A DNA stretch of 64,000 nucleotides from Elusimicrobiota bacterium (GCA_016706425.1 JADJJR010000001.1:385728-449727); one strand, 5' to 3'; shown: positions 10,599 through 59,370, counted from the first letter of the stretch. Notes: generated by a model from the sequence alone, not told the origin. A program made the numbers and translations.

Positions 10599-10689
10599 CC
10601 GGCTTTAAGCATAGCTTAGTTGGGGATTTTTTCAACACCCATTATGGGGGGGCCCCCGCCGATGGGGGGGGCTGGTTTTGGGGTTGGGG

Positions 10690-33455: not shown

Positions 33456-36400
33456 GTGTTCTCCCCTATAGTTTATAGGAAGACGACCGCCTTTTGTCTA
33501 TCGGTGGCCTATGCGTTGTCGAACGTGGTTTTCGTCCACAGTGCCGAGTCCCGGTTTTGGGCGGACCGCCAACGCGCGCGGCGTTCCGATCAATCGGACC
33601 CCCGGGGTTGGCTGGCCCAGGCCGGGCCCGCCGCCTTGCCCAACGCCGCCTTGCCCCGCGTCGCCGCGGTGGAACCGGGCGCCGCGGCGCGGTCGGCGCG
33701 GGAGGAGCGCCTTCCGGAACGTTTGTCGCCGGACCACCGCCGCTGGTTGGCGGCCGTTCCCGCTGCCCGGGCGTCGTTGAGGCGGGTGACCTTGCCGCCC
33801 CAGGCCCCGCGCGGCCTGGTGATCCATCTCCAGGATGTGCACCACCACGTGGAAGCCCAAAAAAATCTGGGCGGGACCGTCGACGCCCTCCTCGCCGCCG
33901 GGGGGCGGCGTTCGCCCTGGGTGGCGTTGGAGGGGGCGTTTGGTCCCGTGGACCTCTCCGTGCCGAGGGCGTTCCCGGACCCCGCGGCCCTGGCCGCCGC
34001 CGCGGAGGAAATGCTCCTGCAAAACGAAATTTCCGGTCCGATCCAGGCCCTTTTAACGCGGGCGGGGCCCGCGCCTTTGGTGCTGGGAATCGACGACCCT
34101 GCCCATTACGCGGCCAACGTCGAGGCCTACCGTCGCGCCCACCCCCGATTGGCCGCCGAAAAAGAGCGGCTGAGCCGGGCCCGCGCCGCGCTCGAGGATG
34201 AAAAAGCCAAAACGGGGAACACGGCTCTCCTGGATTTCGACCGCCGGGCCCGCGCCTATCATGGGGGCGCGACGCGCTTGGGGGCCTTCGCCCGCTCCCT
34301 GGCGCCTCTGCCCAAGGGCCGTCACCCCGCCCTAGCGCACTTCCTGGACACTCTGGCGATGGAGGACGCCATCGATTTCGCCCGCGTGGAGGCCGAGCGC
34401 GGCCGGGTGTTGGAACGGCTCGCGCGGTCGCTCTCGCCCGAGGACACGGCGCGGTTGGTGGCCCAGGGGGTGGCCTATCGGTCGGGCGAGTTGAGCGCCG
34501 CGGATTTCTATCTTTCACTGGATGAACTGTGCCAAAAGGCCGGGGTGGCTCTGTCGGGCACCCCGGCCTTCGCCGATTACCTGCGCTACGTGTTGCACGC
34601 CCACCGGATCGACGCCGAGGCGTTGTTCGAGGATTTACGGGTGCGGGAAGAGGCGGTCGTCGAGGGGCTCTTGTCCACGCCCGTCGAACGCCGGCTTTGG
34701 GAGGAATCCGGACGCCTGGCCCTGGAGGAAAAACTCGCCGACTTCTCTTTGACGCCGGAGGAATGGGCCGGGCTGGCGGCGAAGGGGCCGGCGCGATCGG
34801 CCGTTTTGGCGTACGCCGAACGTTTTTACGTCGAAGCTCAATCCCGGGACGAGGCCATGGCCGCCGGGATGTTGAAAAAATTGGCCGATGCCCCCGAGGC
34901 CCTTTTGGTCACCGGGGGCTACCACGCCCGGGGATTGACCGAACGCCTGACGCGGGCGGGGTACGCCGTCGCCTCGGTCGTTCCCAAACTCACCAACATC
35001 GAAGGGCCCCAGGGCGCGGCCTATTTGGCGGTCTTCGCCGAGGAAAAGACCCCCCTGGACCGCTTGTTCGAAGGACCGAAACTTTTCCTCGCCGCGCCGC
35101 CGGCTTCGGACGAGAGTCTGGCGCGCACGGAATTGACCGCGGGCGCCGTCGCCGTCGGCGGCGAGCCGGACGGCGCGCTGCCCGGTCCGGTGCGCGACCA
35201 CTTGAAGCGGACGTTCACGGTCATTGACGGCGGACGGAAGGGGGGGGTGTCTTCCGTCCGCGTCCGTCATCGGGGACGGACGATCGTCGCCTCCTTCGAC
35301 CCCACGAAACCCGGGGGGCGCAAGGCCCGTTGGGGGCTTGTCGGGCGGGCGCGTCCCACCCGCGAAGATTTTCGCCGCTGGACCGGGCGGATCGGTTCCC
35401 GCGCGCGGAATCTCCTCCGGGGGGCGTGGGGGGCACCGCCGTCCGTGGCGGTCGTTTCCCCCGCCGCGGTGCGCCGTTTGGACCCCCGCGCGGTGTTCAT
35501 TGATTTTGATTTGACCCTTTGGGCGGGTTACCCCTTCGACCCCCAGGCGAATTTGTTCGTGGACCGGTTGTTCAACGGCGACCCGGCGAAACGCGCGCCG
35601 ATGGCGCGTTTCCTGAAACGGATCTCGGGTTTGGGCGAAGCGGATAAATTGGCCGCGCTTCGCAACGATCGCGCGCTCGGTTTCCCCCCGATGGACGCCG
35701 CGGCCTGGACGGCGGTTTATCGGGAGGTCCGGGCGCTGATCAAGGCCCGTATTGAATCCAATTTCGATCCCCGTTTGGTGCCCGGCGCGATGGAATTGCT
35801 CCAGGCGGTGAAAGCGTCGGGGCGGCCGGTGTTCGTCCTCACGGGCGGCAACGCCGCGGAATGCCGCGCCCGGGCGGAACGGCTGGGGCTGGCGCCGTTC
35901 CTGGACGGGTATTTCGGGGACGGGGACAAAGCCGCCCGTTTGGCCGAGGCCCTGAAGAAAGAAAATTTGGCGCCGCACCAGGCGCTGATGATCGGCGACG
36001 CCCCCTCGGACATGGAGGCCGCGCGGTCCCAGGGCGTTCTCGGGGTGGGGTTGGCCCTGGAGCCGGCCGATGACGTTCTATTGAAAGAGGCCGGCGCCGG
36101 GGTGCTGGTGCGCCGCGCGTTCAACGATCCGGGCGCCTTGCTCGGCGTTCTCAAACTCGAAACCCCGCCGACGGTCTTTCCCGCCCGCGCGGGGATGCGG
36201 ACCGCCGTGGGCACCTACGCGCCGCTGTTCCAAATCCGGTCGGACCGGGATTGGGGCATCGGCGATTTCGGGACCGCCGCGCGGACGGCGGAACTGCACC
36301 GGGCCCTGGGTCTCACGCTTCTTCAAATCGAACCCTTGAACATGTCCTCCGCCGGAAACTCCCCCTATTCCGTGGCCAGCTCCCGGGCCATCGAGCCGAA

Positions 36401-39400
36401 CCGGATTGACGTGGAGGCCGCCGTCGCGCGTTTCGCCCCCCAGGGCGAAACGGCCGCCTGGGTCGCCGCCGCGGAGATCCAGCGACGGATCGCGGCTCTC
36501 CGCGCTTCCCCGCGGGTGCGCTACGCGGAGGTGGACGCCCTTAAGCGCGAGGCCCTCTCCCGGCTTTGGGCGGAGGTGAAAGACACCCCCGCCGTGCGCG
36601 CCGCGCTGGCCGAATTTCGGGGCGCCAACGAAGCGTGGCTGACGGACCACTTGCTTTACGTGGTATTGAAAAGGCGCTTCCTGGCCGAACCCCCGGGCGC
36701 GGCGGCGGGCCCGATGTGGGACTGGCGCAACTGGCCGGCGGGCCTGCGGGACCGGGACCGCGGCGCCCTCCGCCGCGCCCGCATCGATAACCGCGAGGCG
36801 CTCGCTTTCGAAACGTTTCTCCAGTTCCTGGCCGCGGATCAACGCCGACGGTTCGTGGACCAGTCCCGCCGCCTGGGGGTCGAGGTGATGTTGGACATTC
36901 CCTTCGCGCTGGACGGGGCCGACCTGTGGATCCACCCGGAAGTTTTTGGGTTAAAAAAAAGCGACGGGTACCGGCGATCGGTCACCCAGGGGGTGCCGCC
37001 CGAGTCGGCCTACCCCGCGGGCCAATACTGGCAATTTTATCCCTTCGACTGGTCGAACCCCGCGAGCGCCGATTTTATAGACGAATTGCTGCGGTTCAAC
37101 CAGCGGTGGGCCTCCTGCGTGCGCCTCGACCACGTGTTGGGCTACTATCGCTCGTACTTGTTCAGCGAAGACGCCCGGGGGCGATTGACGTTGGAGAGCC
37201 TTGGCCTTTACCGCGCCCTGCGGGAATTGCAGGAACGCGGCCGCGCGGCGGGGGACGACGTCAAGCGCGCCGCGGTGGACGAAGCGCGCCGGCTCCTGCT
37301 GGAAAAATTCCAAAGGTTGGACCGGGGGACGCCGGTCGAAGACAATTCCCTGCCGGCGGTGCTGCGGGGCCGGCTGTTCGGCGCGGACGGCGCGTTGACG
37401 CCGGACGCGGCCTTGATCGTGGCGCGGTCGGCGGACGGGACGCCCCCCGGCGGTTCCTGGAACCGACAATACGTCGTTGAAAAAGCCGTTTTTGAAGACC
37501 GGCCCTGGTGGGATTTCCTGCGGCTCACGCCCCGGTCCGACGGCGGGGACGGGGGATTCCTCTGGGAATACCTTTTCGGGTCCGGCGGCGACGTGCGCCC
37601 CACGGACAGCCTGCGCCCGGCCGCCTTCGTCCGCGCCCCCGGGGAAGAAATTCTTTCGCGCCTTCTGGCCACGGCCCAGGCGAACGGAACCCAGCTCGTT
37701 TGGGAGACCCTCGGCACCGTCCCGCCCGGCGTGCCCGAGTCCGTGCGGCGTTTGGGCGGCACCGACTATCTGCCGGTCATTTACGGCGAAAACCCCGGCA
37801 GCCTTTACCACCCCACCCGTCACACGGCCAACGCCTACGTGACGATGGGTCTGCACGATTCCACCACGCTCCGGCACCGCTGGGAAAACGAATGGTCCGA
37901 AGCCGACCGGCGCCATCTCTGGGGACTGATGCGACCGGACCGCGCGCCGCCGGAGGATTTGCGATCTTTCACCCCCGACGTCCGCGACGGGTTGATCGCC
38001 CTGGTGATGAAATCCCCGGCCCGCATCGCGGCGCTGACGTGGACGGATCTTTTGGGGCTGGGCGAAGAGCACCGCATCAACGCCCCGGGGGTTCAGGACG
38101 GCCAATGGACGGGCCGCTGGCCCTTCACCGTCGAGGAAATGGGCCGGGTCCTCGCGACGAACGACGCCGACCACCCCGCCCACGGCGCCCTCACGGCCCT
38201 GCCGCGTCTCGTCGCCGAAGGGGGGCGGCACCGCGGCGCGGCGCCGCCGACCGGGCTGCTGCGGACCGACCCGGAGACCGATGGGGTTATGGTTCAAATT
38301 CGGCCGTTCGGCCAACCCTTCGTGATCGACGCCTACGTGAACCGCCCGGGCGGGGTCCCCCGCTGGCGGGTTCAAGACCCGGAGGGCCGAACCCTGGCCG
38401 ACCTCCCCCTGAAGGGGGGGGATTCTGTCGGGTCCCTTGTCGGGGGCACGCCGCCCGGTGTGACCCGGTGGCGAACCGAATGGCGGGCGCCCCGCCCCGG
38501 CGATTACACCTTCACCGTTGAAATCGACGGCGCGACGTCGGCGCCGGGGCGCCTGCGCGCGGTCCCCGTGGGCACCGATTTGAATCCGCTCTCCCCCGGC
38601 TACGGGCAACACAAACCCTCCCTATTGGCCCGATTGGGGCGGGGCGTGGTTTCGTTGTTGGTGGTTTTGTCCCTCGGGGTCGGGTCTTCGTTTCCCGTCG
38701 ACGCCCGGGAGGAACGAATTTTCGCCGAACAGGGTTGGACGGTGTTGGGGGCTGAAGATTCGGGTCCCGGCGCGCGGGCCATTCGGACCCCGGCGGGGGC
38801 GTTCACCGAGCTTAAGATCCTGAAGGGGAAGGTGCAGGTGGGGTCTATCAAGGGGAATGGGTATTTTCGCTTGACCCCGCCCGACACCGTTTGGGGAACC
38901 AGTTTCGTGACCCCCGGTTATTGGGCCGACGGACGCCAGCACATCACCCTCATCACGGACGCGACCTATTCGACCGACGAAGAGGGCCGCCTGACGGTGA
39001 AGGGGCGGCTGGATTCCCCCCACGTGAGCGCCAACGATTGGACATGGACGTTTCGCCCATCGGACCCTTCGGGAGGGGTGGAGACCGGACTCGCCTTTAC
39101 GTTGAAGGCGAACCGGGAATTCGCTCTGGACCCGGATCGCGCGGATTCGGGCGAGGCGATGAAAATCGCCCAATTCAGCTCCATGAACATCGGCAGCGAC
39201 TGGGACGCCGACGGCGTGACCGCCGGCGACCGGTCCGGTTCGCTGGCCCGCGCCGACGCGCGGGTGTTCGATTGGCCCGTCCCGTTGGGGCGGGGCCAGG
39301 AGGTGGTGTTGGCCAACGACGGCCTCTCCCGTCCGCGCCAAACGCCCACCACTTTTTTCCGGGTTGATAAATCGCCCGGCCCCCTTCTGGTTCAAGGGTG

Positions 39401-42400
39401 GGTGACCCGTTCGAACGACCCCAACGATGACAACGTGGGCGTTTGGCTCGCCTGGGACGGACGGGGCCAAACCCGGTTCCGCCCGGGGGACGTCATTGGG
39501 GGTCCCGTTGAATTGATCGCGGGCGCCCGCCCGCCGGGGGACCCCCCAACCCTCCCGCCGGCCTCGGGTTTTTCATCCATCGACGAGGCGTCTTTCCGGC
39601 GCGCCCAAAAAAGCGTCGAAAGCATGGGGGAATTTCTGCGGGATTATTTCGCCGCCCGCGGTTTCGCGCCGCGCGCGGAACATGTCCTCCGGGGGATCGC
39701 CGAGCATTACACCGCTCCACGCGCCCCCCACCGTCCCTACGCCGACCTCGCCGCCGAATTTACGCCGGGCCGGCTGGATTCCATGGTCAAAGCGGGGGAA
39801 CTCCGACGGCTTCCGCCGGGTGGGAGTTGGATTCCCCCGGACTGGGAATGGAAAGGTCGGCCGATCGGGCGGTGGTACGCCGTGTACGTCGCCGGGGCCT
39901 TGGAAGGCGCGGGGGTGTTGGCCCTGGCCGCAAAAGGATTCCCCCTTTTGTTGGCGGCCTTGGCCCCCGGCCTGGGCGATTCCCTGGTGTTTGATGTTTT
40001 GAGGACGGTGACCGCGGGGGGAGGGGCGTGGGCGCTTTTTCGTTATTTGCATTGGCCTCTCAATCGGGACGCCTTGTCGAACGCTTCCGTCGTAAAACTG
40101 GGGGCCGCGATGTTTCTCGCGGGCGTTTTGGCGGGGTTCCCGTGGTGGGAGCCATTGGCCGGGAACATCTTATTCGGCGCGTTGCTGGCCTTTGTTTCCA
40201 TCGAGCATTACCGGGAAAATTTCAAGATCTTTTCGGAAGTGAAACCGGCAACCGGAGGCGCGGAGGAGTCCCCGGTCCCGCGGGTTCGGCCACGCGACCC
40301 CATGGAAGTCTTGCGGGGCCTGACCGAAACGGCCCCCCCCGGTTGGGGGTCCTGGCAGATCCTTCGGGGAAAGGATTCCGTGGTCTTGCACGCCTACGTC
40401 GAAGCCTTCGGGCGTGAGCCGGTCAATCAATTTGAAATGAAAGTCCGACTGGGCGCCGTGGACGATTGGGGCGGGACGTGGAACCGCGTCCAGGAATTTT
40501 CCATGACCGACCCCTTGAAGGGGGCCTATTGGCGGAACGGGGAGGCGTTTTTCTCGACCCGCCTCCAGGTCCCGCCCGGGAAATACGAATACGAATTCCT
40601 CCTTCGGAAATATCCGACGGGTCCCTGGATCAAGGAAAAAGGGAAAACGCGCGTCCACCGTCTGCTCGCCGACCCGGGCGGCGCCCGCTTCGCCCTGCGC
40701 CAAAAATTCGTGCCCATCCGCCAAGGCCAGGGCACGACCTGGCAGGCGCGGCGGTTGAGCGACCGCTTGGGCGCCGGTTTTGTCAACGCGGAACCGGAGC
40801 GGGGCGCGAAAATCATTCTCCACGCCTTAAAGGACATCGTGTATTACGCCGTGGAAAACACCCAACAGCACGGCCGGCCCGGGGCGGAGGCCTTCGTCGA
40901 CGCCTGGGTGGAGGGGGACGCCCTATTCGTCGAGGTGGTCAACCCGAGCGATTTGCCGCTGCCCGCCGAGTTGGACGGGGAGTATTCGGTGACGTCCCCC
41001 AATCCCCCCGTCCCCAAGGAAAAACGCGGCCCGGGCTCCCGCCGCGGAGAGGCGGTGGCGCGGGTCCGATCCCTGGTTAATAAAGTTTATTCCGACGCGG
41101 CGGTCGCGTCGGTTCTCGCCCCCCGGGCCCGCTGGTCCTGGCGACGCGAACCCGCAACGGGGGCGGTCGTGTTTCGCCTGTCGATTCCATTGCCCGAAGT
41201 CGGGAAAGCGGCACTCGCCCCGTCCGCGCCCTTCGGGGCCGAGGAGGTGGAGATCGCGCCCTTGACGCCGGAGAGCGCGCGGCGGTTCGAGGCCGATTTG
41301 TTGGCCATGGAGCGAGGCCGCCCGGGCGGGTGGCGCACGCTTTCGCGCTTTTTGGAGGAAAAGCGCGCCGCCACCGGCACGCCGCTCGAGGGGAAATGGG
41401 AATTCAGTTTTCTCGCGGTCGTGAAGGGCCGCGCGGTGGGTTACCTGATCGGCGTTCGACCCAACGCCGACAAGCCCTACGCGCGCGAGGATTTGGCCCT
41501 GCGGGGCCTGCCCGTGTCCAAGGGCCTTGTGGTCTTCCGGGCCGGGGTTTTGGACTCCGCCCGCGGACAGGGGGTCGGGCGGCGCCTGTGGCGCGCGGCG
41601 GCGGAGGCGGCCGAAGCCGCCGGCATCGACTACATTTATCAGGACGCCCGCGTGGACAACACGCGCGCCCGGGATTTGTACCGGCGCTTGGGCTTCGTCG
41701 ACATCGCCGGGTTCAACGATTCCTCCAAAGACATCGATTACATGGCCATGGTGGCGCGCACTCGCGATCTTCGATCGTCCACCGGCGGTCGCGCGCCGGG
41801 GATCGCCTCCCAAGTCCTGGGGTTATCGGGCCTCGTTTTCATGGCGGAAGCGCTGGAGCGGTATCTGTCCTGGATGGGCGGACTTCTGTGGATGGCCCCG
41901 CCCGGGGCCACGGGCCCTCCCGCGGCTTTGATCGCGCGGGCCGTGGAATCGGCGCGGTCGGTGGATCGGGCCATGAGCACCGGCGGTTACGACCGCTTGA
42001 CGGGTCTCGCCGGGGATTTGAAAGCGGCTCTCCTCAATTTGGGAAAAGGCCCCGCCGGTCTTCGGTCCCTATTGGAAAACACTTTGGAAACCGCCGAATT
42101 GGCCGTTGCGCAACTGGGCCCTGAAGTGGCCCGCCGCAGCCTCGACGCCCCAAGGGTGTCGTTCCTCTTCGTCGCGGCGGAAACCGCCCTCTTGGCCAAC
42201 GACGCCCCCGCCGCCGCGAAGGCCCTCGACGCCTTGGAATCCATCCGGCCCGGTCTGCTATTTAAGGAAGCCCAATACCACGGGACGCTCCGGTGGGCCC
42301 TGGCGGTGGTTCGGAACGAGCCGGACGCGGCGGCGCGTTTCCAATCCGCCGTCGCCCACCGTTTTGTGGACGGCCTCCTGGGCTGGACCGAAGAATCTTT

Positions 42401-45400
42401 CCACGCCCGGTTCCTCGGTCGGGACGGCGGGACCGCCGGGGGGGACGCCGCGCCGATGTCGCTGACGCTGGCGGCCGCCGCGCCCCGCGTCGCGCCGACG
42501 GATCTGCGCGCGTTGATTAAAGAAGCGGTCGGCGCCCCGGCGTCCGTTTCGACGGCGCGGGCGCGCCGGCTCGGGGTTCCCGCGGACGAATGGTCGCGAT
42601 GGCTCGATCAATTGAAATCCCGGGGCTTGCTCACGGGCGACGGCGCGGGACCGTCCACGGCCCGGCCGCGGGGCGGAGCGGGGCGGCTGACCCTGTGGGT
42701 GTTGGCGGCGGGGTTGGGTCTGCTTTGGATGGCCTTCGGCCCCTTCCCCATCGGGGCTGCGGAATGGCACCAAACCGTTTTTTCGGCGGCCGGCGTCCTC
42801 CCGTGGTTGGCGCTCGGCACGAACCGCCCGGTTCCCCCGGACCGCCGCCGACCGGTCGAACAGGCCCCCCTCGGTCGCGTCGCCGCCGTCAACCTGATGG
42901 ACGCGGGCAGCCGCATCGAAGGCGACGGCTTCACGACCGCGCGCGGGTTGGCCAAGGTCGCGCGGTTGTTCCCCACCCTGGCCCGCCGGGGGTTCACGCA
43001 GGTTTACCTTTACAACGGCCTCTACGCGATGAGCGCGTTGGGGGACATGATCCACCGCGACGGCGGCGCGTCGCCGCGGTTGGTGAAATCCGGGCCCGCC
43101 CAGGTTCGGGTCGAAGGTTACACTCCCAAGCGGATGGAACGCGACGGTCTCGTCTACCGGGACCACGGCAACAATTTCTCCATCGCCAGCATGGACCGTC
43201 TGAACCCCGCGGTCGTGGACGGGGTCACCAACGAAGAACGCTGGGCGCGGTTCGCCGAGGCGGTGGCGGCGGCGCGGCGCGCCGGGTTGGGCGTGGTGGT
43301 CGACTTCAACCCGTGGATCTCCCCCGACGCGTTGACGCCGGAGACCGCGCGCTGGGCCGAGGAGGTCCGGCCGGTTGTTGGCGCGGACCGCGACCGGTCG
43401 GACGAAGAATTGCTGGCACAACCCGACAACGCGGAATTTGCCCTGCTCACCTTCGGCGCCGAACGGCTTTTGGTGAAAAATTGTTTCCCCGGCAAAGACC
43501 AAATGAAACCGAACCCCCGCCACCCCGACTACGCCGCCTACCTGGACCGGAGCCTGCGGCGGTTGATCGACGCCGGGGTGACGGGCGTCCGCGTCGATAT
43601 GGCGGGGGACTTGACGGTGTCCCAGGTCGGCGTGGATTGGGAGTTTTGGGGCCGTTTGATCGAGGACGCCCGTCGTTACGCCGAATCGAAAGGGCAAAAA
43701 ATCCACTTCATCATGGAGGCGTTCAAAGACAATTGGCCCGAACGGTTCCTGGACCGCTACCCGGACAATTACGTCTACCACGCCGCGCCTTTTCACATTT
43801 TCCGCGCGCTCGCGAAGGGGGACCGGGCCGCCCTTCCCGAATTGCGCCGCGACTTGGACGACATCTTGAGCCGCCGCCGGGGGCAATACGTCGTTTACCC
43901 GACCAATTTCGACGAGCCGTCTCTCCGGGCCATGGGGGGGCCGACCGCGGCTTTCGTGGCGATGTTGCTGACTTACGAGCGGCTTGGCCTGCCTCTGTTG
44001 CTGGATCTGCGGGAATTGATGGGAGAGGAAGGGCAGAATATCCCCCAGGCCGGCGGCGAAACGCGAGACGAAGCGGGCCGGTTTCAGCACCCCTTTTCCA
44101 ACCCGGCCCGTCGCGATTGGCGGGAATTCCGCCGGCGGTTGGAACGGGAAGATCCCCTGGGCGTCGGGCCCTGGGTCGCCGAGCTCGCCGCCGCCGACCG
44201 GGTGGAGGTGTTGGACACCTCCGACCCGACGCGTTATTTCGCCGTTCGACTGACGTGGGAGAACGGCGAAGAAGTCGTTCGGGTGTTCGATTTTTTCCCC
44301 GAGGACCCGACCGAGGAAAAAGACGTTCCGCTCCCCGCAAACCCGCCGAATATTCCTTCATTCCGCACCGCCATGGTCAACCTCATGGACGTGGGCAGCC
44401 ATTTGCGCGCCGCCAAAATGGCCACGGACCGGGGGCTGGCCAAGGCCACCCGCCTTTTGCCCTTCCTCGCCGAGATCGGCATGAACGACATTTACATCCA
44501 CAACGGGCTCTATGAACCCAGCGCCGCGGGCGTCGTGGTCCACACCGAAAGCACCGCGGCCCCGAACCTGCTCCGGTTCGGCCCCGCGACCGTTTTCGTC
44601 CAGGACTACACCCCCAAGCGCATGACCGTCACGGTCGATGGCCGGTCCATCGAATTGGGCGATGATTTCGGGAACAACTACGCCGTGGACGACATGAACC
44701 GTTTGAACCCCGCGGTCGTGGACGGCGACACCAACGAAGACCGTTGGTCGTCCCTGGCTTCCTTCACGGCGGCCGCCCGTCAAAAGGGCCTGACCGTGAC
44801 CGTCGACCTCGTCCCCTGGTTGACGCCCCTCAACGTGACCTTCGACCGCCTTGGGTGGGCGAAGGAGGTCGTCAAGGTGGAGGGCGAACGGGCGGCGCTC
44901 TCGGACCGGGCCCTCCTTGAGGCGAACCGGGACCACGTTTTGTTGACGTTTCCCGAAGGCCGGTTTTTGGTTCGGCGGTACATGGGGGTGGACCAGATCG
45001 CTCCCGATTTCACCCACCCGCAATATTTCTCCTATTTGGAATCGCATCTCCGTCGGTTGATCGACGCCGGGGTGTCCCGGGTCCGGGTGGACATGGCCCA
45101 CGACCTCATCGATCCCGCCCGGGATCCGCAATGGGACCTTTGGACCAAGTTGATCAACGGGGCCAAGGCCCACGCCGCGCGGCGGGGGCTATCGTTCCAT
45201 TTCCTGATGGAAGCCTACGGCCCCTGGGCCGTAGAATTCCTGCGGCGCTTTCCGGAGGAACAGGTTTACCATGTCGATCCCCACCACAATTACCGCCGGG
45301 TGGCGGCGGGCAACGACCCCCGCGCCTTGCCGGACCTGTTGGCCGCCTTGAATTACGCCCGGGACGTCCAAAAAGGGCGGTTCGTCGCGTTCCCGACGAA

Positions 45401-47174
45401 CTTTGACATGCCGTCCCTGGCGAACATCGGCGGCCCCACGGAGACGTTCCTCAAGTTGCTCCTCGTCTATGAACGCTTGGGCGTGCCTCTGATGGTGGAC
45501 CTGCGGGAATTGTTGGGCGAAGAGGGGCAGAACATTCCCCAGGCGGGAGGCCAGGAGATCGTCAACGGAAATTTTGGCCATCCGTTCTTGCGGACACCGC
45601 GCCGGGGGTACCGGGGTCTCCTGCGGCTGATCGGCGCGCGTCCGTCCCCGGCGGCGGTCATTCGGGATTGGCGCGAAACCCTGCGCAACGCCGCCTCGGT
45701 CGAAATCTTGGAGTCCAACGACCCCGCGCGGTTCGTCACGGTGCGGATCACCAACCAAGAGGGGTGGCAGCGCATCGAGGATTTGGATTTCAACCCCCAG
45801 GCCGGGCCGCCCGTGAACGACCGTTGGGTCCGTTGGAGCGCCGGCACGGCCCGGGCCGCCGCTCTCCTGGCCCCCGCCGTGGGCGTTCTGTTGATCGGCG
45901 CGTTGACCCCCGGCGCCGCCTGGGCCGTCGACGCCGCCTCCGGAGCGACGGGAGTCCTCGAGATCGTCGGTTGGACCGCTTTGGCCTGGGTCGCTTTGTC
46001 GGTGGTGGTCGTGTCGCTCGTGGCCCGCGCGGTGGGTCGCGGCAAGCGGGGGGAATGGGTCGAGTCGGTCCAGGTGAGCCCGTTGCCCTGGGGGAAAATC
46101 GTTCGGACGCTTCTGCGGGGCGCGGCCTGGGTTCATGACGAGCGGTCGTCGCTTCGCTTTCTCGGCCGGGCCGCCGAGGTGATCCGAACGGTGGGGCCGG
46201 AGGGCCTCAGCGCGGCCGAGCGGCGCGAGGTCCATTTCGCGGTTCAGGATTTGCGGGACCTTTTTTCTGGGAAAATGGTGCGCGGGAAGGCCCTGGAGGA
46301 GTTCCACAAAACCTTCGTTCGCCCGGGCGCCCCCGCGACGCCGGCTTGGTTGGAACCCGCCGCCGGCCGGGACGGCGCCATTTTGTCCGCCGCGGTGTGG
46401 GGCTCGCCCATCAATTTTGAAACGGCGTTCCGGCTGGAGGAGCGGAATTTGGCCTTCAAGCTCAACGAATTCCTTCCCTTTGAGGGCCCGTTGGACGTCC
46501 AAAGCGTTGACGGGCGTTCGCGCGGTCACGAATTCCTCACACGGCTGGCCCCGGCCCTGGCTCGAAGCGATTACCGTCGGCCCTTTGAAGCCGCGCTTCG
46601 AAAGACGCCGCCCTTCGAGCGGGGCCCGCTTCCCCCCTGGGAGGTGGTGTTGCACCGCCTCCGCCAAATGGCCCTCGGTGAATCGACTTTGAGCGCGCTC
46701 CCCCCGGGCGCCCCGGCCCAATTGGAGATTTGCAACTGGAACGACCGGGAAACCGTCCGCGACACCGTGGAACGGGTGCGGGCTATTAACCGCGGGGCCG
46801 ACACCCCGGTGCGGCTCATCCTGGCGGGGTCCGACGAATCCACCCGGGAGCGGTTGAACCGGTGGGCCGGGACGGATCCGTGGATCGCCGTGCTCGATCG
46901 GCCGGTGGCGCCCGCGGGGTCCTTGGACCTGAACGCCTTGGGCGAGAGCTACGCGCGCCTGATCGCCCGGCCGGACTGGGACAGGCCGTTGTCCCTGGCG
47001 GTCAGCGCCTCGGAGGGTTTGATCCAAAATGTGGGCACGGCCGCCGCGGCCGTCGCGGCTCTGCCCGCCGCCCTTGGGGAAGCCCTGCGTCGGTTCATGG
47101 AGGCCATGCCGCTCCGCCCCGTGGATTTTAACAGCCAAATCCAAGTTCTCCAAATTCTCGCCCAAAACGCTTAA
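33456..47174 (+). CDS. Giant 4572-aa multidomain membrane protein (HAD hydrolase, 4-alpha-glucanotransferase GH77, Ig/CBM-like, HATPase-like, GNAT, two GH13-like domains)
   Basis: Single uninterrupted frame with recognisable motifs along its length: DFDLTLW/IGDAPSD, RLDHVLG/WETLG/LHD, ARGQGVG/YRRLGF, RVDMA/MEA/TNFD twice. Confidence 0.85.
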   Translation: MFSPIVYRKTTAFCLSVAYALSNVVFVHSAESRFWADRQRARRSDQSDPRGWLAQAGPAALPNAALPRVAAVEPGAAARSAREERLPERLSPDHRRWLAAVPAARASLRRVTLPPQAPRGLVIHLQDVHHHVEAQKNLGGTVDALLAAGGRRSPWVALEGAFGPVDLSVPRAFPDPAALAAAAEEMLLQNEISGPIQALLTRAGPAPLVLGIDDPAHYAANVEAYRRAHPRLAAEKERLSRARAALEDEKAKTGNTALLDFDRRARAYHGGATRLGAFARSLAPLPKGRHPALAHFLDTLAMEDAIDFARVEAERGRVLERLARSLSPEDTARLVAQGVAYRSGELSAADFYLSLDELCQKAGVALSGTPAFADYLRYVLHAHRIDAEALFEDLRVREEAVVEGLLSTPVERRLWEESGRLALEEKLADFSLTPEEWAGLAAKGPARSAVLAYAERFYVEAQSRDEAMAAGMLKKLADAPEALLVTGGYHARGLTERLTRAGYAVASVVPKLTNIEGPQGAAYLAVFAEEKTPLDRLFEGPKLFLAAPPASDESLARTELTAGAVAVGGEPDGALPGPVRDHLKRTFTVIDGGRKGGVSSVRVRHRGRTIVASFDPTKPGGRKARWGLVGRARPTREDFRRWTGRIGSRARNLLRGAWGAPPSVAVVSPAAVRRLDPRAVFIDFDLTLWAGYPFDPQANLFVDRLFNGDPAKRAPMARFLKRISGLGEADKLAALRNDRALGFPPMDAAAWTAVYREVRALIKARIESNFDPRLVPGAMELLQAVKASGRPVFVLTGGNAAECRARAERLGLAPFLDGYFGDGDKAARLAEALKKENLAPHQALMIGDAPSDMEAARSQGVLGVGLALEPADDVLLKEAGAGVLVRRAFNDPGALLGVLKLETPPTVFPARAGMRTAVGTYAPLFQIRSDRDWGIGDFGTAARTAELHRALGLTLLQIEPLNMSSAGNSPYSVASSRAIEPNRIDVEAAVARFAPQGETAAWVAAAEIQRRIAALRASPRVRYAEVDALKREALSRLWAEVKDTPAVRAALAEFRGANEAWLTDHLLYVVLKRRFLAEPPGAAAGPMWDWRNWPAGLRDRDRGALRRARIDNREALAFETFLQFLAADQRRRFVDQSRRLGVEVMLDIPFALDGADLWIHPEVFGLKKSDGYRRSVTQGVPPESAYPAGQYWQFYPFDWSNPASADFIDELLRFNQRWASCVRLDHVLGYYRSYLFSEDARGRLTLESLGLYRALRELQERGRAAGDDVKRAAVDEARRLLLEKFQRLDRGTPVEDNSLPAVLRGRLFGADGALTPDAALIVARSADGTPPGGSWNRQYVVEKAVFEDRPWWDFLRLTPRSDGGDGGFLWEYLFGSGGDVRPTDSLRPAAFVRAPGEEILSRLLATAQANGTQLVWETLGTVPPGVPESVRRLGGTDYLPVIYGENPGSLYHPTRHTANAYVTMGLHDSTTLRHRWENEWSEADRRHLWGLMRPDRAPPEDLRSFTPDVRDGLIALVMKSPARIAALTWTDLLGLGEEHRINAPGVQDGQWTGRWPFTVEEMGRVLATNDADHPAHGALTALPRLVAEGGRHRGAAPPTGLLRTDPETDGVMVQIRPFGQPFVIDAYVNRPGGVPRWRVQDPEGRTLADLPLKGGDSVGSLVGGTPPGVTRWRTEWRAPRPGDYTFTVEIDGATSAPGRLRAVPVGTDLNPLSPGYGQHKPSLLARLGRGVVSLLVVLSLGVGSSFPVDAREERIFAEQGWTVLGAEDSGPGARAIRTPAGAFTELKILKGKVQVGSIKGNGYFRLTPPDTVWGTSFVTPGYWADGRQHITLITDATYSTDEEGRLTVKGRLDSPHVSANDWTWTFRPSDPSGGVETGLAFTLKANREFALDPDRADSGEAMKIAQFSSMNIGSDWDADGVTAGDRSGSLARADARVFDWPVPLGRGQEVVLANDGLSRPRQTPTTFFRVDKSPGPLLVQGWVTRSNDPNDDNVGVWLAWDGRGQTRFRPGDVIGGPVELIAGARPPGDPPTLPPASGFSSIDEASFRRAQKSVESMGEFLRDYFAARGFAPRAEHVLRGIAEHYTAPRAPHRPYADLAAEFTPGRLDSMVKAGELRRLPPGGSWIPPDWEWKGRPIGRWYAVYVAGALEGAGVLALAAKGFPLLLAALAPGLGDSLVFDVLRTVTAGGGAWALFRYLHWPLNRDALSNASVVKLGAAMFLAGVLAGFPWWEPLAGNILFGALLAFVSIEHYRENFKIFSEVKPATGGAEESPVPRVRPRDPMEVLRGLTETAPPGWGSWQILRGKDSVVLHAYVEAFGREPVNQFEMKVRLGAVDDWGGTWNRVQEFSMTDPLKGAYWRNGEAFFSTRLQVPPGKYEYEFLLRKYPTGPWIKEKGKTRVHRLLADPGGARFALRQKFVPIRQGQGTTWQARRLSDRLGAGFVNAEPERGAKIILHALKDIVYYAVENTQQHGRPGAEAFVDAWVEGDALFVEVVNPSDLPLPAELDGEYSVTSPNPPVPKEKRGPGSRRGEAVARVRSLVNKVYSDAAVASVLAPRARWSWRREPATGAVVFRLSIPLPEVGKAALAPSAPFGAEEVEIAPLTPESARRFEADLLAMERGRPGGWRTLSRFLEEKRAATGTPLEGKWEFSFLAVVKGRAVGYLIGVRPNADKPYAREDLALRGLPVSKGLVVFRAGVLDSARGQGVGRRLWRAAAEAAEAAGIDYIYQDARVDNTRARDLYRRLGFVDIAGFNDSSKDIDYMAMVARTRDLRSSTGGRAPGIASQVLGLSGLVFMAEALERYLSWMGGLLWMAPPGATGPPAALIARAVESARSVDRAMSTGGYDRLTGLAGDLKAALLNLGKGPAGLRSLLENTLETAELAVAQLGPEVARRSLDAPRVSFLFVAAETALLANDAPAAAKALDALESIRPGLLFKEAQYHGTLRWALAVVRNEPDAAARFQSAVAHRFVDGLLGWTEESFHARFLGRDGGTAGGDAAPMSLTLAAAAPRVAPTDLRALIKEAVGAPASVSTARARRLGVPADEWSRWLDQLKSRGLLTGDGAGPSTARPRGGAGRLTLWVLAAGLGLLWMAFGPFPIGAAEWHQTVFSAAGVLPWLALGTNRPVPPDRRRPVEQAPLGRVAAVNLMDAGSRIEGDGFTTARGLAKVARLFPTLARRGFTQVYLYNGLYAMSALGDMIHRDGGASPRLVKSGPAQVRVEGYTPKRMERDGLVYRDHGNNFSIASMDRLNPAVVDGVTNEERWARFAEAVAAARRAGLGVVVDFNPWISPDALTPETARWAEEVRPVVGADRDRSDEELLAQPDNAEFALLTFGAERLLVKNCFPGKDQMKPNPRHPDYAAYLDRSLRRLIDAGVTGVRVDMAGDLTVSQVGVDWEFWGRLIEDARRYAESKGQKIHFIMEAFKDNWPERFLDRYPDNYVYHAAPFHIFRALAKGDRAALPELRRDLDDILSRRRGQYVVYPTNFDEPSLRAMGGPTAAFVAMLLTYERLGLPLLLDLRELMGEEGQNIPQAGGETRDEAGRFQHPFSNPARRDWREFRRRLEREDPLGVGPWVAELAAADRVEVLDTSDPTRYFAVRLTWENGEEVVRVFDFFPEDPTEEKDVPLPANPPNIPSFRTAMVNLMDVGSHLRAAKMATDRGLAKATRLLPFLAEIGMNDIYIHNGLYEPSAAGVVVHTESTAAPNLLRFGPATVFVQDYTPKRMTVTVDGRSIELGDDFGNNYAVDDMNRLNPAVVDGDTNEDRWSSLASFTAAARQKGLTVTVDLVPWLTPLNVTFDRLGWAKEVVKVEGERAALSDRALLEANRDHVLLTFPEGRFLVRRYMGVDQIAPDFTHPQYFSYLESHLRRLIDAGVSRVRVDMAHDLIDPARDPQWDLWTKLINGAKAHAARRGLSFHFLMEAYGPWAVEFLRRFPEEQVYHVDPHHNYRRVAAGNDPRALPDLLAALNYARDVQKGRFVAFPTNFDMPSLANIGGPTETFLKLLLVYERLGVPLMVDLRELLGEEGQNIPQAGGQEIVNGNFGHPFLRTPRRGYRGLLRLIGARPSPAAVIRDWRETLRNAASVEILESNDPARFVTVRITNQEGWQRIEDLDFNPQAGPPVNDRWVRWSAGTARAAALLAPAVGVLLIGALTPGAAWAVDAASGATGVLEIVGWTALAWVALSVVVVSLVARAVGRGKRGEWVESVQVSPLPWGKIVRTLLRGAAWVHDERSSLRFLGRAAEVIRTVGPEGLSAAERREVHFAVQDLRDLFSGKMVRGKALEEFHKTFVRPGAPATPAWLEPAAGRDGAILSAAVWGSPINFETAFRLEERNLAFKLNEFLPFEGPLDVQSVDGRSRGHEFLTRLAPALARSDYRRPFEAALRKTPPFERGPLPPWEVVLHRLRQMALGESTLSALPPGAPAQLEICNWNDRETVRDTVERVRAINRGADTPVRLILAGSDESTRERLNRWAGTDPWIAVLDRPVAPAGSLDLNALGESYARLIARPDWDRPLSLAVSASEGLIQNVGTAAAAVAALPAALGEALRRFMEAMPLRPVDFNSQIQVLQILAQNA

Positions 47175-56193: not shown

Positions 56194-56202
56194 CGAATCG
56201 TC

Positions 56203-58773: not shown

Positions 58774-58779
58774 AAGCGC

Positions 58780-59340: not shown

Positions 59341-59370
59341 AAATTTACCTTTCCCAGGAGGAACCATCGC

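What the first reader, a model, noticed from the sequence alone, without database searches (positions are those of the whole stretch)
33456..47174. 4572-aa giant protein concatenating alpha-glucan enzymes with HAD, GNAT and HATPase-like domains
Approximate order: conserved-looking N-domain (IHLQDVHHH, 33456-35150), HAD (35490-36160), GH77 amylomaltase (36190-38120), Ig-like (38290-38570), beta-rich domain (38710-39520), TM cluster (39870-40200), CBM-like (40370-40660), HATPase-like (40800-41200), GNAT (41250-41770), helical region, GH13-like twice (42880-45800), TMs, C-domain. Giant multi-enzyme membrane proteins are reported in Omnitrophota/Elusimicrobiota-type bacteria with suggested host or prey interaction roles. 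A glycogen/maltodextrin-focused set points to use of storage glucans (inference).
Basis: partly seen in the sequence, partly recalled or inferred. Interest (0 to 1): 0.75.

Follow-up and report, generated by a model that had tools for sequence, protein, structure and literature searches.

The report
Membrane-anchored giant alpha-glucan multi-enzyme protein
This is a real 4572-residue gene of an uncultured Elusimicrobiota bacterium, and it belongs to the poorly understood class of giant membrane proteins also found in Omnitrophota; it strings starch/glycogen-type enzymes together, most probably on the inner face of the cell membrane rather than as a surface weapon.

Summary
The 13.7-kb ORF (33456-47174, +) is real. 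It carries a coding signal throughout and is under purifying selection in every segment. At least nine public sequences are intact, and there is a collinear, syntenic 4569-aa ortholog at 77% identity. A few assemblies split the gene, each at a different place. The two split points seen at DNA level are single-base changes in C runs.

Confirmed domains:
- HAD (motifs I, II and IV).
- GH77 amylomaltase (Asp/Glu/Asp intact).
- GNAT.
- Two tandem copies of a divergent GH13-like barrel that Pfam does not capture (Arg-Asp/Glu/Asp invariant, canonical histidines absent).
- Several transmembrane clusters.

The labels Ig-like, beta-rich, CBM-like and HATPase-like could not be verified.

Two results are new here. 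The N-terminal domain is a remote ChaN/Tiki-superfamily module that heads a paralogous family of giant proteins. It occurs 5-8 times per Elusimicrobia genome and also in Omnitrophota giants of up to 7.5 kaa. The GH13-like module is rare (about 100 cluster representatives in 1.84 billion) and is found largely in those giants. Some of them also carry a debranching enzyme, glycogen phosphorylase or GT1.

Charge distribution and cofactor-dependent paralog cargo place most of the protein on the cytoplasmic side. Verdict: a new member of a known, uncharacterised kind.

The parts
33456..47174 (+). Whole gene: 4572 codons plus stop, GTG start. AGGA lies 7 nt upstream, in an AT-rich intergenic region.
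   Evidence: Identical protein P0113 is on 6 public contigs. Ortholog P0007 is 77% identical and collinear. dN/dS is 0.11-0.42 in all segments except the 25-codon TM1 (0.86).
33483..33545 (+). N-terminal hydrophobic helix (aa 10-30), followed by the family motif ES[RN]FWxERR. Read here as an N-out/C-in membrane anchor; a cleaved signal peptide (HSA|E) is not excluded.
   Evidence: K+R is 2 upstream and 5 downstream. The motif is conserved.
33738..35135 (+). Family-defining N-domain (aa 95-560): an alpha/beta core interrupted by a ~260-aa helical insertion. Invariant or near-invariant residues are D127, H129, Q135, E159, R464, G487, G488 and H490. Remote ChaN/Tiki-superfamily relative.
   Evidence: Alignments A4 and A5. 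AF2 model: pLDDT 87, pTM 0.79. PF04187 is hit by 12 of 25 family members, best E 2.2e-6, window's own sequence 0.04. Foldseek found nothing significant; EreC ranked 10th and 17th.
35136..35486 (+). Linker or small domain (aa 561-677). It contains the two C runs (35050 lies just upstream; 35458) where the JGI contig has an extra C.
   Evidence: The frame is supported by P0002, P0005, P0006 and by ortholog P0007. dN/dS 0.19.
35487..36155 (+). HAD-superfamily phosphatase/mutase domain (aa 678-900). Motif I is D683-x-D-x-T, motif II T796, motif IV GDxxxD (D848).
   Evidence: Pfam PF00702 7.7e-13, PF12710, PF13419. PDB relatives are BT2127-type pyrophosphatase and beta-phosphoglucomutase. Motif positions.
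36168..38135 (+). GH77 4-alpha-glucanotransferase (amylomaltase) domain (aa 905-1560). Catalytic D1225 (VRLDH), E1417 (WETLG) and D1468 (LHD) are present. A ~155-aa insertion sits between the nucleophile and acid/base strands.
   Evidence: Pfam PF02446 1.9e-74. Residue-level alignments to E. coli MalQ, Aquifex and Thermus amylomaltases. Positions.
38136..38624 (+).
   Evidence: No Pfam, NCBIfam or PDB match. Conserved in the ortholog: 70% identity, dN/dS 0.23.
38625..38699 (+). Transmembrane helix TM1 (aa 1724-1748).
   Evidence: Hydropathy peak 2.0, with K/R on the N-terminal side.
38700..39860 (+). Unassigned ~390-aa domain (aa 1749-2135). It is the only large part predicted to lie outside the cytoplasm.
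   Evidence: No homologs apart from the ortholog. dN/dS 0.20. Its location is inferred from TM parity and flanking charges.
39876..40208 (+). Transmembrane cluster (aa 2141-2251): four clear hydrophobic helices plus one weak one.
40236..41255 (+).
   Evidence: No Pfam, NCBIfam or PDB hit. No homolog found. No similarity to a true HATPase_c. dN/dS 0.12-0.22.
41256..41780 (+). GNAT acetyltransferase domain (aa 2601-2775), with acetyl-CoA motif A R2703-G-Q-G-V-G.
   Evidence: Pfam PF00583 9.9e-12, PF13508, PF13673. Position.
41781..42674 (+). Least conserved segment (aa 2776-3073), possibly with a hydrophobic hairpin at aa ~2780-2815.
   Evidence: 55% identity to the ortholog, dN/dS 0.42. Hydropathy.
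42675..42818 (+). TM hairpin (aa 3074-3121) in front of the GH13-like pair.
   Evidence: Similar hairpins occur in P0001 and P0002. It is not a class-wide feature: 11 of 61.
42870..44357 (+). GH13-like (clan GH-H) barrel, copy 1 (aa 3139-3634). Region I D3283, region II R3379-x-D3381, region III E3421, region IV D3486. The canonical GH13 histidines are absent (VDFNPW, NFD).
   Evidence: Alignments A2, A3, A9. PDB profile hits are all GH13, best CGTase 4.4e-7. AF2 model pLDDT 58; the Foldseek top 50 are all GH13 (SucP, TreS, GlgE), E ~1e-9. 90% identity to the ortholog.
44358..45845 (+). GH13-like barrel, copy 2 (aa 3635-4130). D3784, D3879, E3919 and D3984 are present. 46-47% identical to copy 1.
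   Evidence: 94% identity to the ortholog.
45840..46043 (+). C-terminal TM pair (aa 4129-4196).
   Evidence: Hydropathy peaks of 2.4. K/R lie on both outer flanks and the connecting loop is acidic.
46044..47171 (+). C-terminal domain (aa 4197-4572). The last ~210 aa are shared with the C-termini of P0009 and of paralogs L011 and L018.
   Evidence: No PDB or Pfam match.
32240..33315 (-). Divergently transcribed ECF sigma factor (32707-33315) and zf-HC2 anti-sigma factor (32240-32710). These are syntenic neighbours; no functional link to the giant gene has been shown.
   Evidence: Gene calls and Pfam on the near-identical JGI contig. The same order is seen next to the 77% ortholog.

Best explanation
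One real gene encodes an inner-membrane-anchored polypeptide that faces mostly into the cytoplasm. It belongs to the Elusimicrobiota/Omnitrophota giant-protein class.

Frame of the protein. An N-terminal anchor helix is followed by a ChaN/Tiki-superfamily domain with a conserved Asp/His...Glu...Arg...His constellation. At the other end sit a TM pair and a C-terminal domain. Between them lies a cargo of enzymes.

The cargo here is alpha-glucan centred:
- a HAD sugar-phosphate phosphatase/mutase-type domain;
- a catalytically intact GH77 4-alpha-glucanotransferase;
- a GNAT;
- two tandem divergent GH13-like barrels whose nearest folds are sucrose phosphorylase, TreS and GlgE.

Proposed mechanism. 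[quoted passage not shown] GH77 disproportionates alpha-1,4 chains. The GH13-like modules transglycosylate or phosphorolyse alpha-glucosides. HAD handles a phosphorylated sugar product. A single ~390-aa extracytoplasmic domain (aa 1749-2135) may link this to the envelope or to a signal.

Shown: gene integrity, domain identities, catalytic residues, class membership, and co-occurrence of the N-domain and the GH13-like module.
Inferred: topology, substrates, and physiological role.
For: Gene integrity:
- Coding signal throughout the ORF.
- Nine full-length sequences of 4552-4572 aa at 99.7-100% identity, on contigs of up to 2.55 Mb.
- A 4569-aa ortholog, 77% identical with only 19 gaps, on 7 contigs in the same synteny.
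- dN/dS 0.11-0.42 in all segments except the 25-codon TM1 (0.86).

Enzymes:
- Pfam hits for HAD, GH77 and GNAT.
- GH77 D1225/E1417/D1468 align with the amylomaltase catalytic residues.
- The GH13-like module has significant profile hits to 47 GH13 chains. All top-50 Foldseek hits are GH13. D/R-D/E/D are invariant across 16 diverse members.

Class membership:
- The N-domain is found in 78 Elusimicrobia loci, at 5-8 per genome, heading ORFs of 1.1 to more than 3.9 kaa.
- 39 of about 104 GH13-like representatives also begin with it, including Omnitrophota proteins of up to 7471 aa.

Alpha-glucan theme in relatives: GDE_C (1e-86), glycogen phosphorylase in two members, DUF3417, GT1 and APH.

Cytoplasmic side:
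- K/R distribution around the TM segments.
- GNAT requires acetyl-CoA (established knowledge).
- Paralogs L058, L018, L011 and L012 have Glu/Leu dehydrogenase, PPDK_N plus LMW phosphatase, HEAT plus GNAT, and NUDIX directly after the N-domain with no hydrophobic segment between.
- A 2026 preprint reports the same inner-membrane-anchored cytoplasmic-domain reading for 46% of Omnitrophota long proteins, with GNAT/HAD/HATPase and starch-synthase/GT1/PGM modules (10.64898/2026.06.07.730766).
Against: - Topology rests on crude hydropathy and the positive-inside rule. No dedicated predictor was available.
- The N-terminal segment (n-region K/R, h-region, HSA|E) could be read as a Sec signal peptide. 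Known ChaN and Tiki proteins are extracytoplasmic.
- The GH13-like module lacks the canonical histidines of regions I, II and IV, so its substrate need not be an alpha-glucan.
- About 1300 aa (aa 1561-1723, 1749-2135, 2261-2600, 2776-3073, 4197-4572) have no assigned fold.
- No other glycogen gene lies in the 64-kb window.
- Nothing shows that the full-length protein is made or remains intact.
Confidence: 0.6

Rival explanations
1. Surface-exposed or secreted weapon. The N-terminal segment is a cleaved signal peptide. The N-domain, HAD and GH77 (and perhaps the GH13-like pair) then act outside the cell on host or prey polysaccharide, as proposed for Omnitrophota giant proteins.
For: - The N-terminus has an n-region with K/R, an 18-20-aa hydrophobic core and HSA|E in both the window protein and the ortholog.
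- ChaN and Tiki proteins are extracytoplasmic (established knowledge).
- The literature suggests predatory or cell-wall-degrading roles for such giants (10.1101/2023.11.21.568195; PMC12057145).
- GH77 and GH13 enzymes need no cofactor.
Against: - Five Arg fall within the 15 residues after the hydrophobic core, in a motif conserved across the family.
- The AxA-like site is not conserved in paralogs (AAP|ES, YGR|ES, YTP|ES).
- Paralogs place NAD(P)-, ATP- and acetyl-CoA-dependent enzymes directly after the N-domain with no TM segment.
- The GNAT in the same chain needs acetyl-CoA.
Confidence: 0.12
2. Polyprotein precursor. The N-terminal Tiki-superfamily domain is a metalloprotease that cuts the giant chain, in cis or in trans, into separate membrane-bound and soluble enzymes. 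The gene would then be a way to co-express and co-localise them. This is compatible with the main explanation.
For: - The N-domain is related to the ChaN/Tiki superfamily, which includes the Tiki metalloproteases (superfamily content from established knowledge).
- The constellation D127/H129/E159/R464/H490 is invariant across two phyla.
- The domain always sits at the N-terminus, whatever the cargo.
- The Omnitrophota preprint makes an analogous suggestion for N-terminal C39/S8 peptidase domains.
Against: - Other members of the superfamily are haem binders or esterases, not proteases.
- No conserved linker or cleavage motif was looked for or found.
- Fold search gave only weak EreC matches.
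- There are no protein-level data.
Confidence: 0.15
3. Synthesis or export machine for an alpha-glucan (capsular or periplasmic). The GH13-like pair would work as GlgE-, amylosucrase- or TreS-type polymerising transglycosylases next to TM segments that pass the product outward.
For: - The closest folds are transglycosylases and phosphorylases (SucP, TreS, GlgE, amylosucrase) rather than hydrolases.
- TM hairpins flank the GH13-like pair in this subgroup.
- Relatives carry GT1 and APH (maltokinase-like fold) domains.
Against: - TM segments next to the GH13-like module occur in only 11 of 61 (upstream) and 5 of 48 (downstream) cases across the class.
- No transporter-like domain was recognised.
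- GH77 and the debranching and phosphorylase domains of relatives fit turnover at least as well as synthesis.
Confidence: 0.1
4. Assembly artefact. Two or more neighbouring genes (an N-domain protein of ~590-680 aa plus a HAD-GH77 protein, and so on) were fused by missing bases in homopolymer runs.
For: - JGI contig Ga0558120_03230 is 99.9% identical over 21.8 kb but has one extra C at window 35050 and another at 35458. There the gene is called as 590 + 3770 + 150 aa.
- One NCBI contig splits it into 1651 + 2904 aa.
- The HAD motif I lies only 8 residues after the JGI start of the second piece.
Against: - The break points differ between assemblies: aa 532/668/4423 in one and ~1651-1669 in the other.
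- After the first JGI indel the window frame reads FAEEKTPLDRLFEGPKLFL, matching P0002, P0005 and P0006, while the JGI frame does not.
- The 77% ortholog is open and alignable through all these points.
- Nine full-length sequences exist.
- Dozens of paralogs continue far beyond the N-domain.
- The linker has dN/dS 0.19.
Confidence: 0.02

Closest known systems
Giant multi-domain membrane proteins of Candidatus Omnitrophota (West-Roberts et al. 2023, bioRxiv 10.1101/2023.11.21.568195; 2026 bioRxiv 10.64898/2026.06.07.730766)
   Same: - A single multi-kaa ORF with many TM segments and a mosaic of enzyme domains (HAD, GNAT, HATPase, PPDK_N, NUDIX, HEAT, sugar-metabolism modules).
- About half are predicted to be inner-membrane-anchored with cytoplasmic domains.
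- Direct homology: the N-domain and the GH13-like module of the window protein occur in Omnitrophota proteins P0010, P0015, P0021/P0128 and P0038.
   Different: - The host is Elusimicrobiota.
- At 4.6 kaa it is small for the class.
- Its cargo is GH77 plus a duplicated GH13-like module, rather than the GT5/GT1/TSP3 content stressed in those papers.
- The passages I read in those papers do not mention a shared ChaN/Tiki-like N-terminal domain or a GH13-like module (term searches only).
GH77 amylomaltase / MalQ (Thermus aquaticus 1CWY, E. coli 4S3P) and its known fusions (NCBIfam PRK14507 TreY-MalQ type, PRK14510 GlgX/MalQ)
   Same: - Pfam GH77 match over the full profile (2-460 of 465).
- The catalytic Asp/Glu/Asp align.
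- Fusion of GH77 to other alpha-glucan enzymes has precedent.
   Different: - A ~155-aa insertion lies between the nucleophile and acid/base strands.
- Scores are far below all NCBIfam equivalog cut-offs.
- The domain is embedded in a polytopic 4572-aa membrane protein.
GH13 transglycosylases and phosphorylases: sucrose phosphorylase, trehalose synthase TreS, GlgE, amylosucrase, CGTase
   Same: - A (beta/alpha)8 barrel with a C-terminal beta domain in the AF2 model.
- The top-50 Foldseek hits are all GH13.
- Profile hits cover regions I and II.
- Region I Asp, region II Arg-x-Asp, region III Glu and region IV Asp are invariant.
   Different: - No Pfam Alpha-amylase hit.
- The histidines of regions I and IV are replaced (PW, NF), and the region II His is shifted by one position.
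- A strongly conserved DLRELxGEEGxNIPQAGG motif is specific to the module.
- Only about 100 representatives were found among 1.84 billion clusters, most of them inside giant proteins.
ChaN / Tiki / TraB / erythromycin-esterase superfamily (Pfam PF04187 Cofac_haem_bdg)
   Same: - 12 of 25 N-domain sequences hit PF04187, best E 2.2e-6.
- Motif layout: strand-end His (xQDxH), LEGA Glu, and a C-terminal GGxH.
- EreC is the best-superposing PDB fold.
   Different: - The window sequence itself scores below threshold (E 0.04).
- The Foldseek matches are not significant.
- A ~260-aa helical bundle is inserted into the core.
- The predicted location is cytoplasmic, and the domain is always fused to giant cargo.
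Eukaryotic glycogen debranching enzyme (a GH13-type transferase and a GDE_C glucosidase in one chain)
   Same: Several alpha-glucan activities on one polypeptide. The class relative P0035 combines the GH13-like module with GDE_C.
   Different: The eukaryotic enzyme is soluble, about 1500 aa long, and has no TM segments, HAD, GNAT or ChaN-like head. This comparison rests on my own knowledge and was not tested here.

Membership tests
GH77 (4-alpha-glucanotransferase) | Match to the family profile above the curated threshold | tested here: met
   PF02446: 251.7 bits against a cut-off of 25, profile positions 2-460 of 465. The NCBIfam equivalog cut-offs are not reached.
GH77 (4-alpha-glucanotransferase) | Catalytic Asp nucleophile, Glu acid/base and Asp transition-state stabiliser | tested here: met
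   D1225 (VRLDH), E1417 (WETLG) and D1468 (LHD) align with the xRIDH, EDLG and THD motifs of Thermus, Aquifex and E. coli enzymes.
GH77 (4-alpha-glucanotransferase) | Disproportionating activity on maltooligosaccharides | not testable with these tools
   Needs an enzyme assay.
GH13 / clan GH-H | (beta/alpha)8 barrel fold | tested here: met
   AF2 model (pLDDT 58, pTM 0.61; the core strands are confident). Foldseek: 242 PDB hits at E<=1e-3, and the top 50 are all GH13 at probability 1.0. The model quality is only moderate.
GH13 / clan GH-H | Conserved regions I-IV carrying Asp, Arg-x-Asp, Glu and Asp | tested here: met
   D144, R240, D242, E282 and D347 (copy-1 numbering) are invariant in 16 diverse members. 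Regions I and II align to CGTase and pullulanase at E 4.4e-7 and 8.9e-7.
GH13 / clan GH-H | Canonical histidines of regions I (NH), II (D+4) and IV (HD) | tested here: not met
   The sequences read VDFNPW / VDLVPW, VRVDMAG/H and TNFD. It is therefore GH13-like, not a canonical GH13 member.
GH13 / clan GH-H | Match to Pfam Alpha-amylase (PF00128) | tested here: not met
   No hit at E<=0.1 in the window protein. PF00128 is not among the families reported at E<=1e-4 for 15 relatives.
HAD superfamily | Motifs I (DxDxT), II (S/T) and IV (GDxxxD), plus a profile match | tested here: met
   D683-F-D-L-T, T796 and G-D848-APSD. PF00702: 49.7 bits against a cut-off of 26.4. The motif III Lys was not pinned down.
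GNAT acetyltransferases | Profile match and acetyl-CoA motif A (Q/R-x-x-G-x-G/A) | tested here: met
   PF00583: 45.6 bits against a cut-off of 20.7. R2703-G-Q-G-V-G.
GHKL / HATPase_c | Profile match; N box plus G1 (DxGxG) and G2 boxes | tested here: not met
   No Pfam or NCBIfam hit and no PDB hit. No similarity to the window's own HATPase_c. The sequence has an ENxxxH-like stretch, but VVNPSD stands where DxGxG should be.
Carbohydrate-binding module (CBM20/48-like) | Profile or fold match | tested here: inconclusive
   No sequence-level match. Only a PGKYEYEF-type motif resemblance was seen.
ChaN/Tiki superfamily (PF04187) | Profile match | tested here: inconclusive
   The window sequence gives E 0.04 (14.3 bits against a cut-off of 27.7). 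However, 12 of 25 homologous N-domains hit the family, best E 2.2e-6.
ChaN/Tiki superfamily (PF04187) | Shared fold | tested here: inconclusive
   The AF2 model is confident. Even so, the best related PDB matches (EreC 6XCQ/6XCS) have only TM 0.22-0.26 and probability 0.11-0.13.
Elusimicrobiota/Omnitrophota giant membrane multi-enzyme proteins | Single multi-kaa ORF, several TM clusters and a mosaic of enzyme domains | tested here: met
   Class description.
Elusimicrobiota/Omnitrophota giant membrane multi-enzyme proteins | Homology to recognised members | tested here: met
   The N-domain and the GH13-like module are shared with Omnitrophota proteins of 5-7.5 kaa and with 78 Elusimicrobia loci.

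The most novel reading that the evidence does not exclude
The ChaN/Tiki-like N-domain and the orphan GH13-like barrel would together mark a system shared by two phyla (Elusimicrobiota and Omnitrophota). In it, whole metabolic routes, here alpha-glucan turnover, are encoded as one membrane-tethered chain. The invariant His/Asp/Glu/His head domain would act as a built-in processing or regulatory hydrolase that decides whether the cargo works as a tethered assembly line or is released. The GH13-like module would be a new glycoside-hydrolase or transglycosylase family with its own specificity.
Probability: 0.15. Interest if true: 0.75.

Novelty: new member of a known kind. Interest (0 to 1): 0.55.

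Why it matters
Giant genes of Omnitrophota and Elusimicrobiota are well catalogued but functionally opaque. They are usually discussed as predatory surface weapons.

This protein is a compact 4.6-kaa member found intact in many assemblies. It has three enzyme types that can be assayed directly (GH77, GH13-like, HAD). That makes it a practical entry point for three questions:
- Are such giants cytoplasm-facing enzyme tethers or exported effectors?
- What does the N-terminal head domain do, given that it is shared across phyla?
- What is the specificity of a GH13-like family that current domain libraries miss?

If the cytoplasmic-tether reading holds, it would shift the interpretation of a large share of these giant proteins from predation to organised metabolism.

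Tried and rejected
- A whole-protein search of the 5.8-billion database timed out.
- The word-indexed search of aa 1561-2600 returned nothing, not even the ortholog, so it says little.
- PDB sequence searches of aa 1561-2135, aa 2261-2600 and the C-domain gave only chance-level hits.
- A PDB profile search with the 49-sequence N-domain alignment gave nothing.
- Foldseek of the confident N-domain model gave no significant match.
I rebuilt the alignment from exact substrings of recorded proteins.
- I proposed that a TM hairpin always precedes the GH13-like module. This was rejected: 11 of 61 cases.
- I tried to locate cytoplasm-obligate domains in paralogs with the window's own sigma factor, GATase and HATPase as probes. 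This gave one ambiguous hit. It was replaced by Pfam scans of the TM-free stretches after the N-domain.
- An iterative HMM search for the C-domain found only L011, L018 and P0009.
- The window has no tRNA or Rfam element and no second copy of either hallmark domain.
- The assembly-artefact rival was examined in detail and rejected.

Full report
**1. The observation**

The ORF is as described: 33456-47174 on the + strand, GTG start, 4572 aa. With the window's base composition (65% G+C), a stop-free run of 4572 codons has a probability of about 1e-52. The next longest ORFs in the window are about 1470 aa. GC by codon position stays near 0.70/0.51/0.82 in all fifteen 900-nt blocks, so a single frame is coding throughout. 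An AGGA lies 7 nt before the GTG, in an AT-rich intergenic region. That region is shared with a divergent ECF sigma/anti-sigma pair.

**2. Is it one gene?**

A JGI contig (Ga0558120_03230) is 99.9% identical to window 23456-45226. It has one extra C in a C run at window 35050 and another at 35458. There the gene is called as 590 aa plus 3770 aa.

- After the first indel the window frame reads FAEEKTPLDRLFEGPKLFL. This matches homologs P0002, P0005 and P0006 (FTQEKTPLEKLFxGEKLFL). The JGI frame gives unrelated sequence.
- A 4569-aa ortholog (P0007) is 77% identical and collinear, with only 19 gaps. It reads straight through both sites. It occurs on 7 contigs from NCBI and Logan, in the same gene neighbourhood.
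- The exact window protein is on 6 public contigs, the longest 2.55 Mb. Its 90% cluster holds nine full-length sequences of 4552-4572 aa.
- The split versions break at different places. The JGI contig breaks at aa 532, 668 and 4423. One NCBI contig breaks at about aa 1651-1669.
- dN/dS against the ortholog is 0.11-0.42 in every segment, including the linker. The only exception is the 25-codon TM1, at 0.86.
- In 78 related loci, the ORF that begins with the same N-domain usually runs on for 1100 to more than 3900 aa.

The gene is real and intact. The splits are sequencing errors or sporadic mutations, not a gene boundary.

**3. Domains that hold up**

- HAD (aa 678-861; PF00702, PF12710, PF13419). 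Motif I is D683-x-D-x-T, motif II is T796, and motif IV is GD848xxxD.
- GH77 (aa 923-1556; 1.9e-74). D1225, E1417 and D1468 align with the catalytic residues of Thermus, Aquifex and E. coli amylomaltases. A ~155-aa insertion follows the nucleophile strand.
- GNAT (aa 2647-2766), with motif A R-G-Q-G-V-G.
- Hydrophobic segments at aa 10-30, 1724-1748, 2141-2251 (4-5 helices), possibly 2780-2815, 3074-3121 (hairpin) and 4129-4196 (pair).

**4. The 'GH13-like twice' claim**

Pfam, NCBIfam and single-sequence PDB searches see nothing here. The two copies (aa 3139-3634 and 3635-4130) are 46-47% identical to each other. Three lines of evidence support a GH13 relationship.

- A 4-sequence profile gave a marginal CGTase hit (E 0.0018), aligned over regions I and II.
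- A 16-sequence profile gave 47 PDB hits, all GH13. The best were CGTase at 4.4e-7 and pullulanase at 8.9e-7.
- An AF2 model (pLDDT 58, pTM 0.61) retrieved only GH13 enzymes in the Foldseek top 50. These were sucrose phosphorylase, TreS, GlgE, amylosucrase and amylases, at E ~1e-9 to 1e-7 and probability 1.0.

Across diverse members the region I Asp, region II Arg-x-Asp, region III Glu and region IV Asp are invariant. The canonical histidines are missing (VDFNPW, TNFD). The module is therefore a divergent, catalytically plausible GH13-like (clan GH-H) family that current libraries do not capture. Its substrate remains open.

An exhaustive HMMER scan of 1.84 billion cluster representatives found only 104 proteins at E<=1e-3. 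Most of them are 2000-7500 aa long.

**5. Labels that do not hold up**

The segments called Ig-like, beta-rich, CBM-like and HATPase-like have no Pfam, NCBIfam or PDB sequence match. No homolog was detected beyond the ortholog. The HATPase-like stretch has an ENxxxH-like box but lacks DxGxG. It shows no similarity to the window's own histidine-kinase ATPase domain. All these segments are conserved and under purifying selection, so they are real protein of unknown fold. My two structure-prediction jobs went to the N-domain and the GH13-like module.

**6. The N-domain defines a family**

*Distribution.* A scan of GTDB species representatives with an N-domain alignment returned 78 loci. All are in Elusimicrobia/Elusimicrobiota MAGs, with 5-8 loci in the best-sampled genomes. 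Examples are Ca. Obscuribacterium magneticum DUR003, OdNE BATAC.493, Lyne MAXAC.215 and EBPR_ori4bin.9. In addition, 39 of the ~104 proteins bearing the GH13-like module start with the same domain. Those that carry names are Candidatus Omnitrophota MAG proteins of 6.0-6.5 kaa, plus one labelled Verrucomicrobiae.

*Conserved residues.* Across both phyla the conserved positions are D127, H129, Q135, E159, R464, G487, G488 and H490.

*Structure.* AF2 with 25 sequences gives a confident model (pLDDT 87, pTM 0.79). It shows an alpha/beta core split by a ~260-aa helical bundle. Foldseek finds no significant PDB match; erythromycin esterase EreC is the best-superposing relative.

*Superfamily.* At sequence level, 12 of 25 family members hit Pfam PF04187 (ChaN, Tiki superfamily), with best E 2.2e-6 and the window's own sequence at 0.04. 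I conclude that this is a remote ChaN/Tiki-superfamily domain. Its chemistry (hydrolase or ligand binder) is not established.

**7. Cargo in relatives**

Fifteen giants carrying both the N-domain and the GH13-like module contain the following:
- GDE_C amylo-1,6-glucosidase (1e-86), glycogen phosphorylase in two members, DUF3417, GT1, APH, His_Phos_1 and MGH1-like GH;
- also methyltransferases, MBL/Beta-Casp, LOG and guanylate kinase.

Seventeen Elusimicrobia paralogs contain PPDK_N, PEP-utilizers, LMW phosphatase, sigma-70 regions, ABC1 kinase, GATase, DnaJ, NUDIX, ROK, HEAT, S8 and M48 peptidases, NAGPA and GNAT.

This matches the repertoire reported for Omnitrophota giants. Alpha-glucan enzymes recur in the class, but they are only one theme among several.

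P0009 (1458 aa) is a minimal version: N-domain, one GH13-like module, a TM pair and the C-domain. L011 and L018 share the TM pair plus C-domain ending.

**8. Topology (inferred)**

- K+R counts are 2 before and 5 after the N-terminal helix.
- Lys and Arg precede TM1, while the sequence after it is net acidic.
- Both the 3074-3121 hairpin and the 4129-4196 pair have basic outer flanks.
- GNAT needs acetyl-CoA.
- Four paralogs have no hydrophobic segment between the N-domain and a cofactor-dependent cytoplasmic enzyme. These are Glu/Leu dehydrogenase (L058), PPDK_N with LMW phosphatase (L018), HEAT with GNAT (L011), and NUDIX (L012). The N-domain side is therefore the cytoplasm.

On this model only aa ~1749-2135 is extracytoplasmic. 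For GH77 and GNAT to lie on the same side, the TM cluster at 2141-2251 would need an odd number of helices. Four strong helices plus one weak one is compatible with that.

The main caveat is that the N-terminus could also be read as a Sec signal peptide (HSA|E). No dedicated predictor was available.

**9. Mechanism and rivals**

The best-supported reading is a membrane-tethered, cytoplasm-facing enzyme chain for alpha-1,4-glucan or maltodextrin remodelling, using GH77, two GH13-like transglycosylase/phosphorylase-type modules and HAD. It is framed by a conserved head domain and a C-terminal anchor module.

The rivals are an exported prey-directed enzyme array, a self-processing polyprotein, and a glucan synthesis/export device. 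All three remain possible at lower probability. The assembly-artefact rival is rejected.

**10. Context and novelty**

The neighbours are housekeeping or regulatory genes:
- ECF sigma/anti-sigma and an ABC-2/GldG-like set upstream;
- mutY, pst/phoU and guaA downstream;
- FG-GAP proteins, a GT2-YaiO fusion and two-component proteins further upstream.

There is no other glycogen gene, no mobile element, and no tRNA or Rfam hit in the window.

The protein is already deposited in public databases, named only '4-alpha-glucanotransferase'. The class is described for Omnitrophota, including an inner-membrane-anchored cytoplasmic reading and GNAT/HAD/sugar modules. This is therefore a new member of a known but uncharacterised kind.

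Two points appear to be undescribed in the papers I could search: the cross-phylum ChaN/Tiki-like head domain, and the orphan GH13-like module that travels with it.

Noticed in passing
window 42870-47171 compared with L081 (ortholog locus): Synonymous divergence from the 77% ortholog is about 1.0 over the 5' two thirds of the gene. It drops to 0.17-0.53 over the 3' third (the GH13-like pair, the TM pair and the C-domain). This could reflect recent recombination between the lineages or unusually strong constraint.
   Followed up: no
L001 (JGI Ga0558120_03230), equivalent to window 35050, 35458 and ~46722: This otherwise 99.9% identical contig carries at least three frameshifts inside this one gene. 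The two that I could see at DNA level are single extra C's in C runs. A different NCBI contig breaks the gene at aa ~1651-1669. Gene calls on these assemblies under-report giant ORFs.
   Followed up: yes
L018:481-8430 (Elusimicrobiota EBPR_ori4bin.9): This 2650-aa paralog shares the C-terminal module. After the N-domain it carries a PEP-utilizers mobile domain, an LMW phosphatase and PPDK_N. That set is reminiscent of a dikinase/phosphatase pair. It is a lead only.
   Followed up: no
L058:11678-13363 and the loci scanned: Paralogs fuse the N-domain to a complete Glu/Leu/Phe/Val dehydrogenase. One paralog scanned carries sigma-70 regions 2 and 4. This is unusual cargo for a membrane-anchored giant protein.
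   Followed up: partly
window 56137-60486 (-): A 1449-aa ORF with no Pfam hit. I did not check whether it is a real gene.
   Followed up: no
window 6177-15605 (-): Two large FG-GAP/fn3 repeat proteins (1473 and 824 aa) lie next to a 775-aa protein that fuses a GT2 glycosyltransferase to a YaiO beta-barrel domain.
   Followed up: no
P0001 (JGI, 946 aa): A stand-alone relative combines a NAGPA phosphodiester-glycosidase domain, a TM hairpin and one GH13-like module. So the module also exists outside giant proteins.
   Followed up: partly
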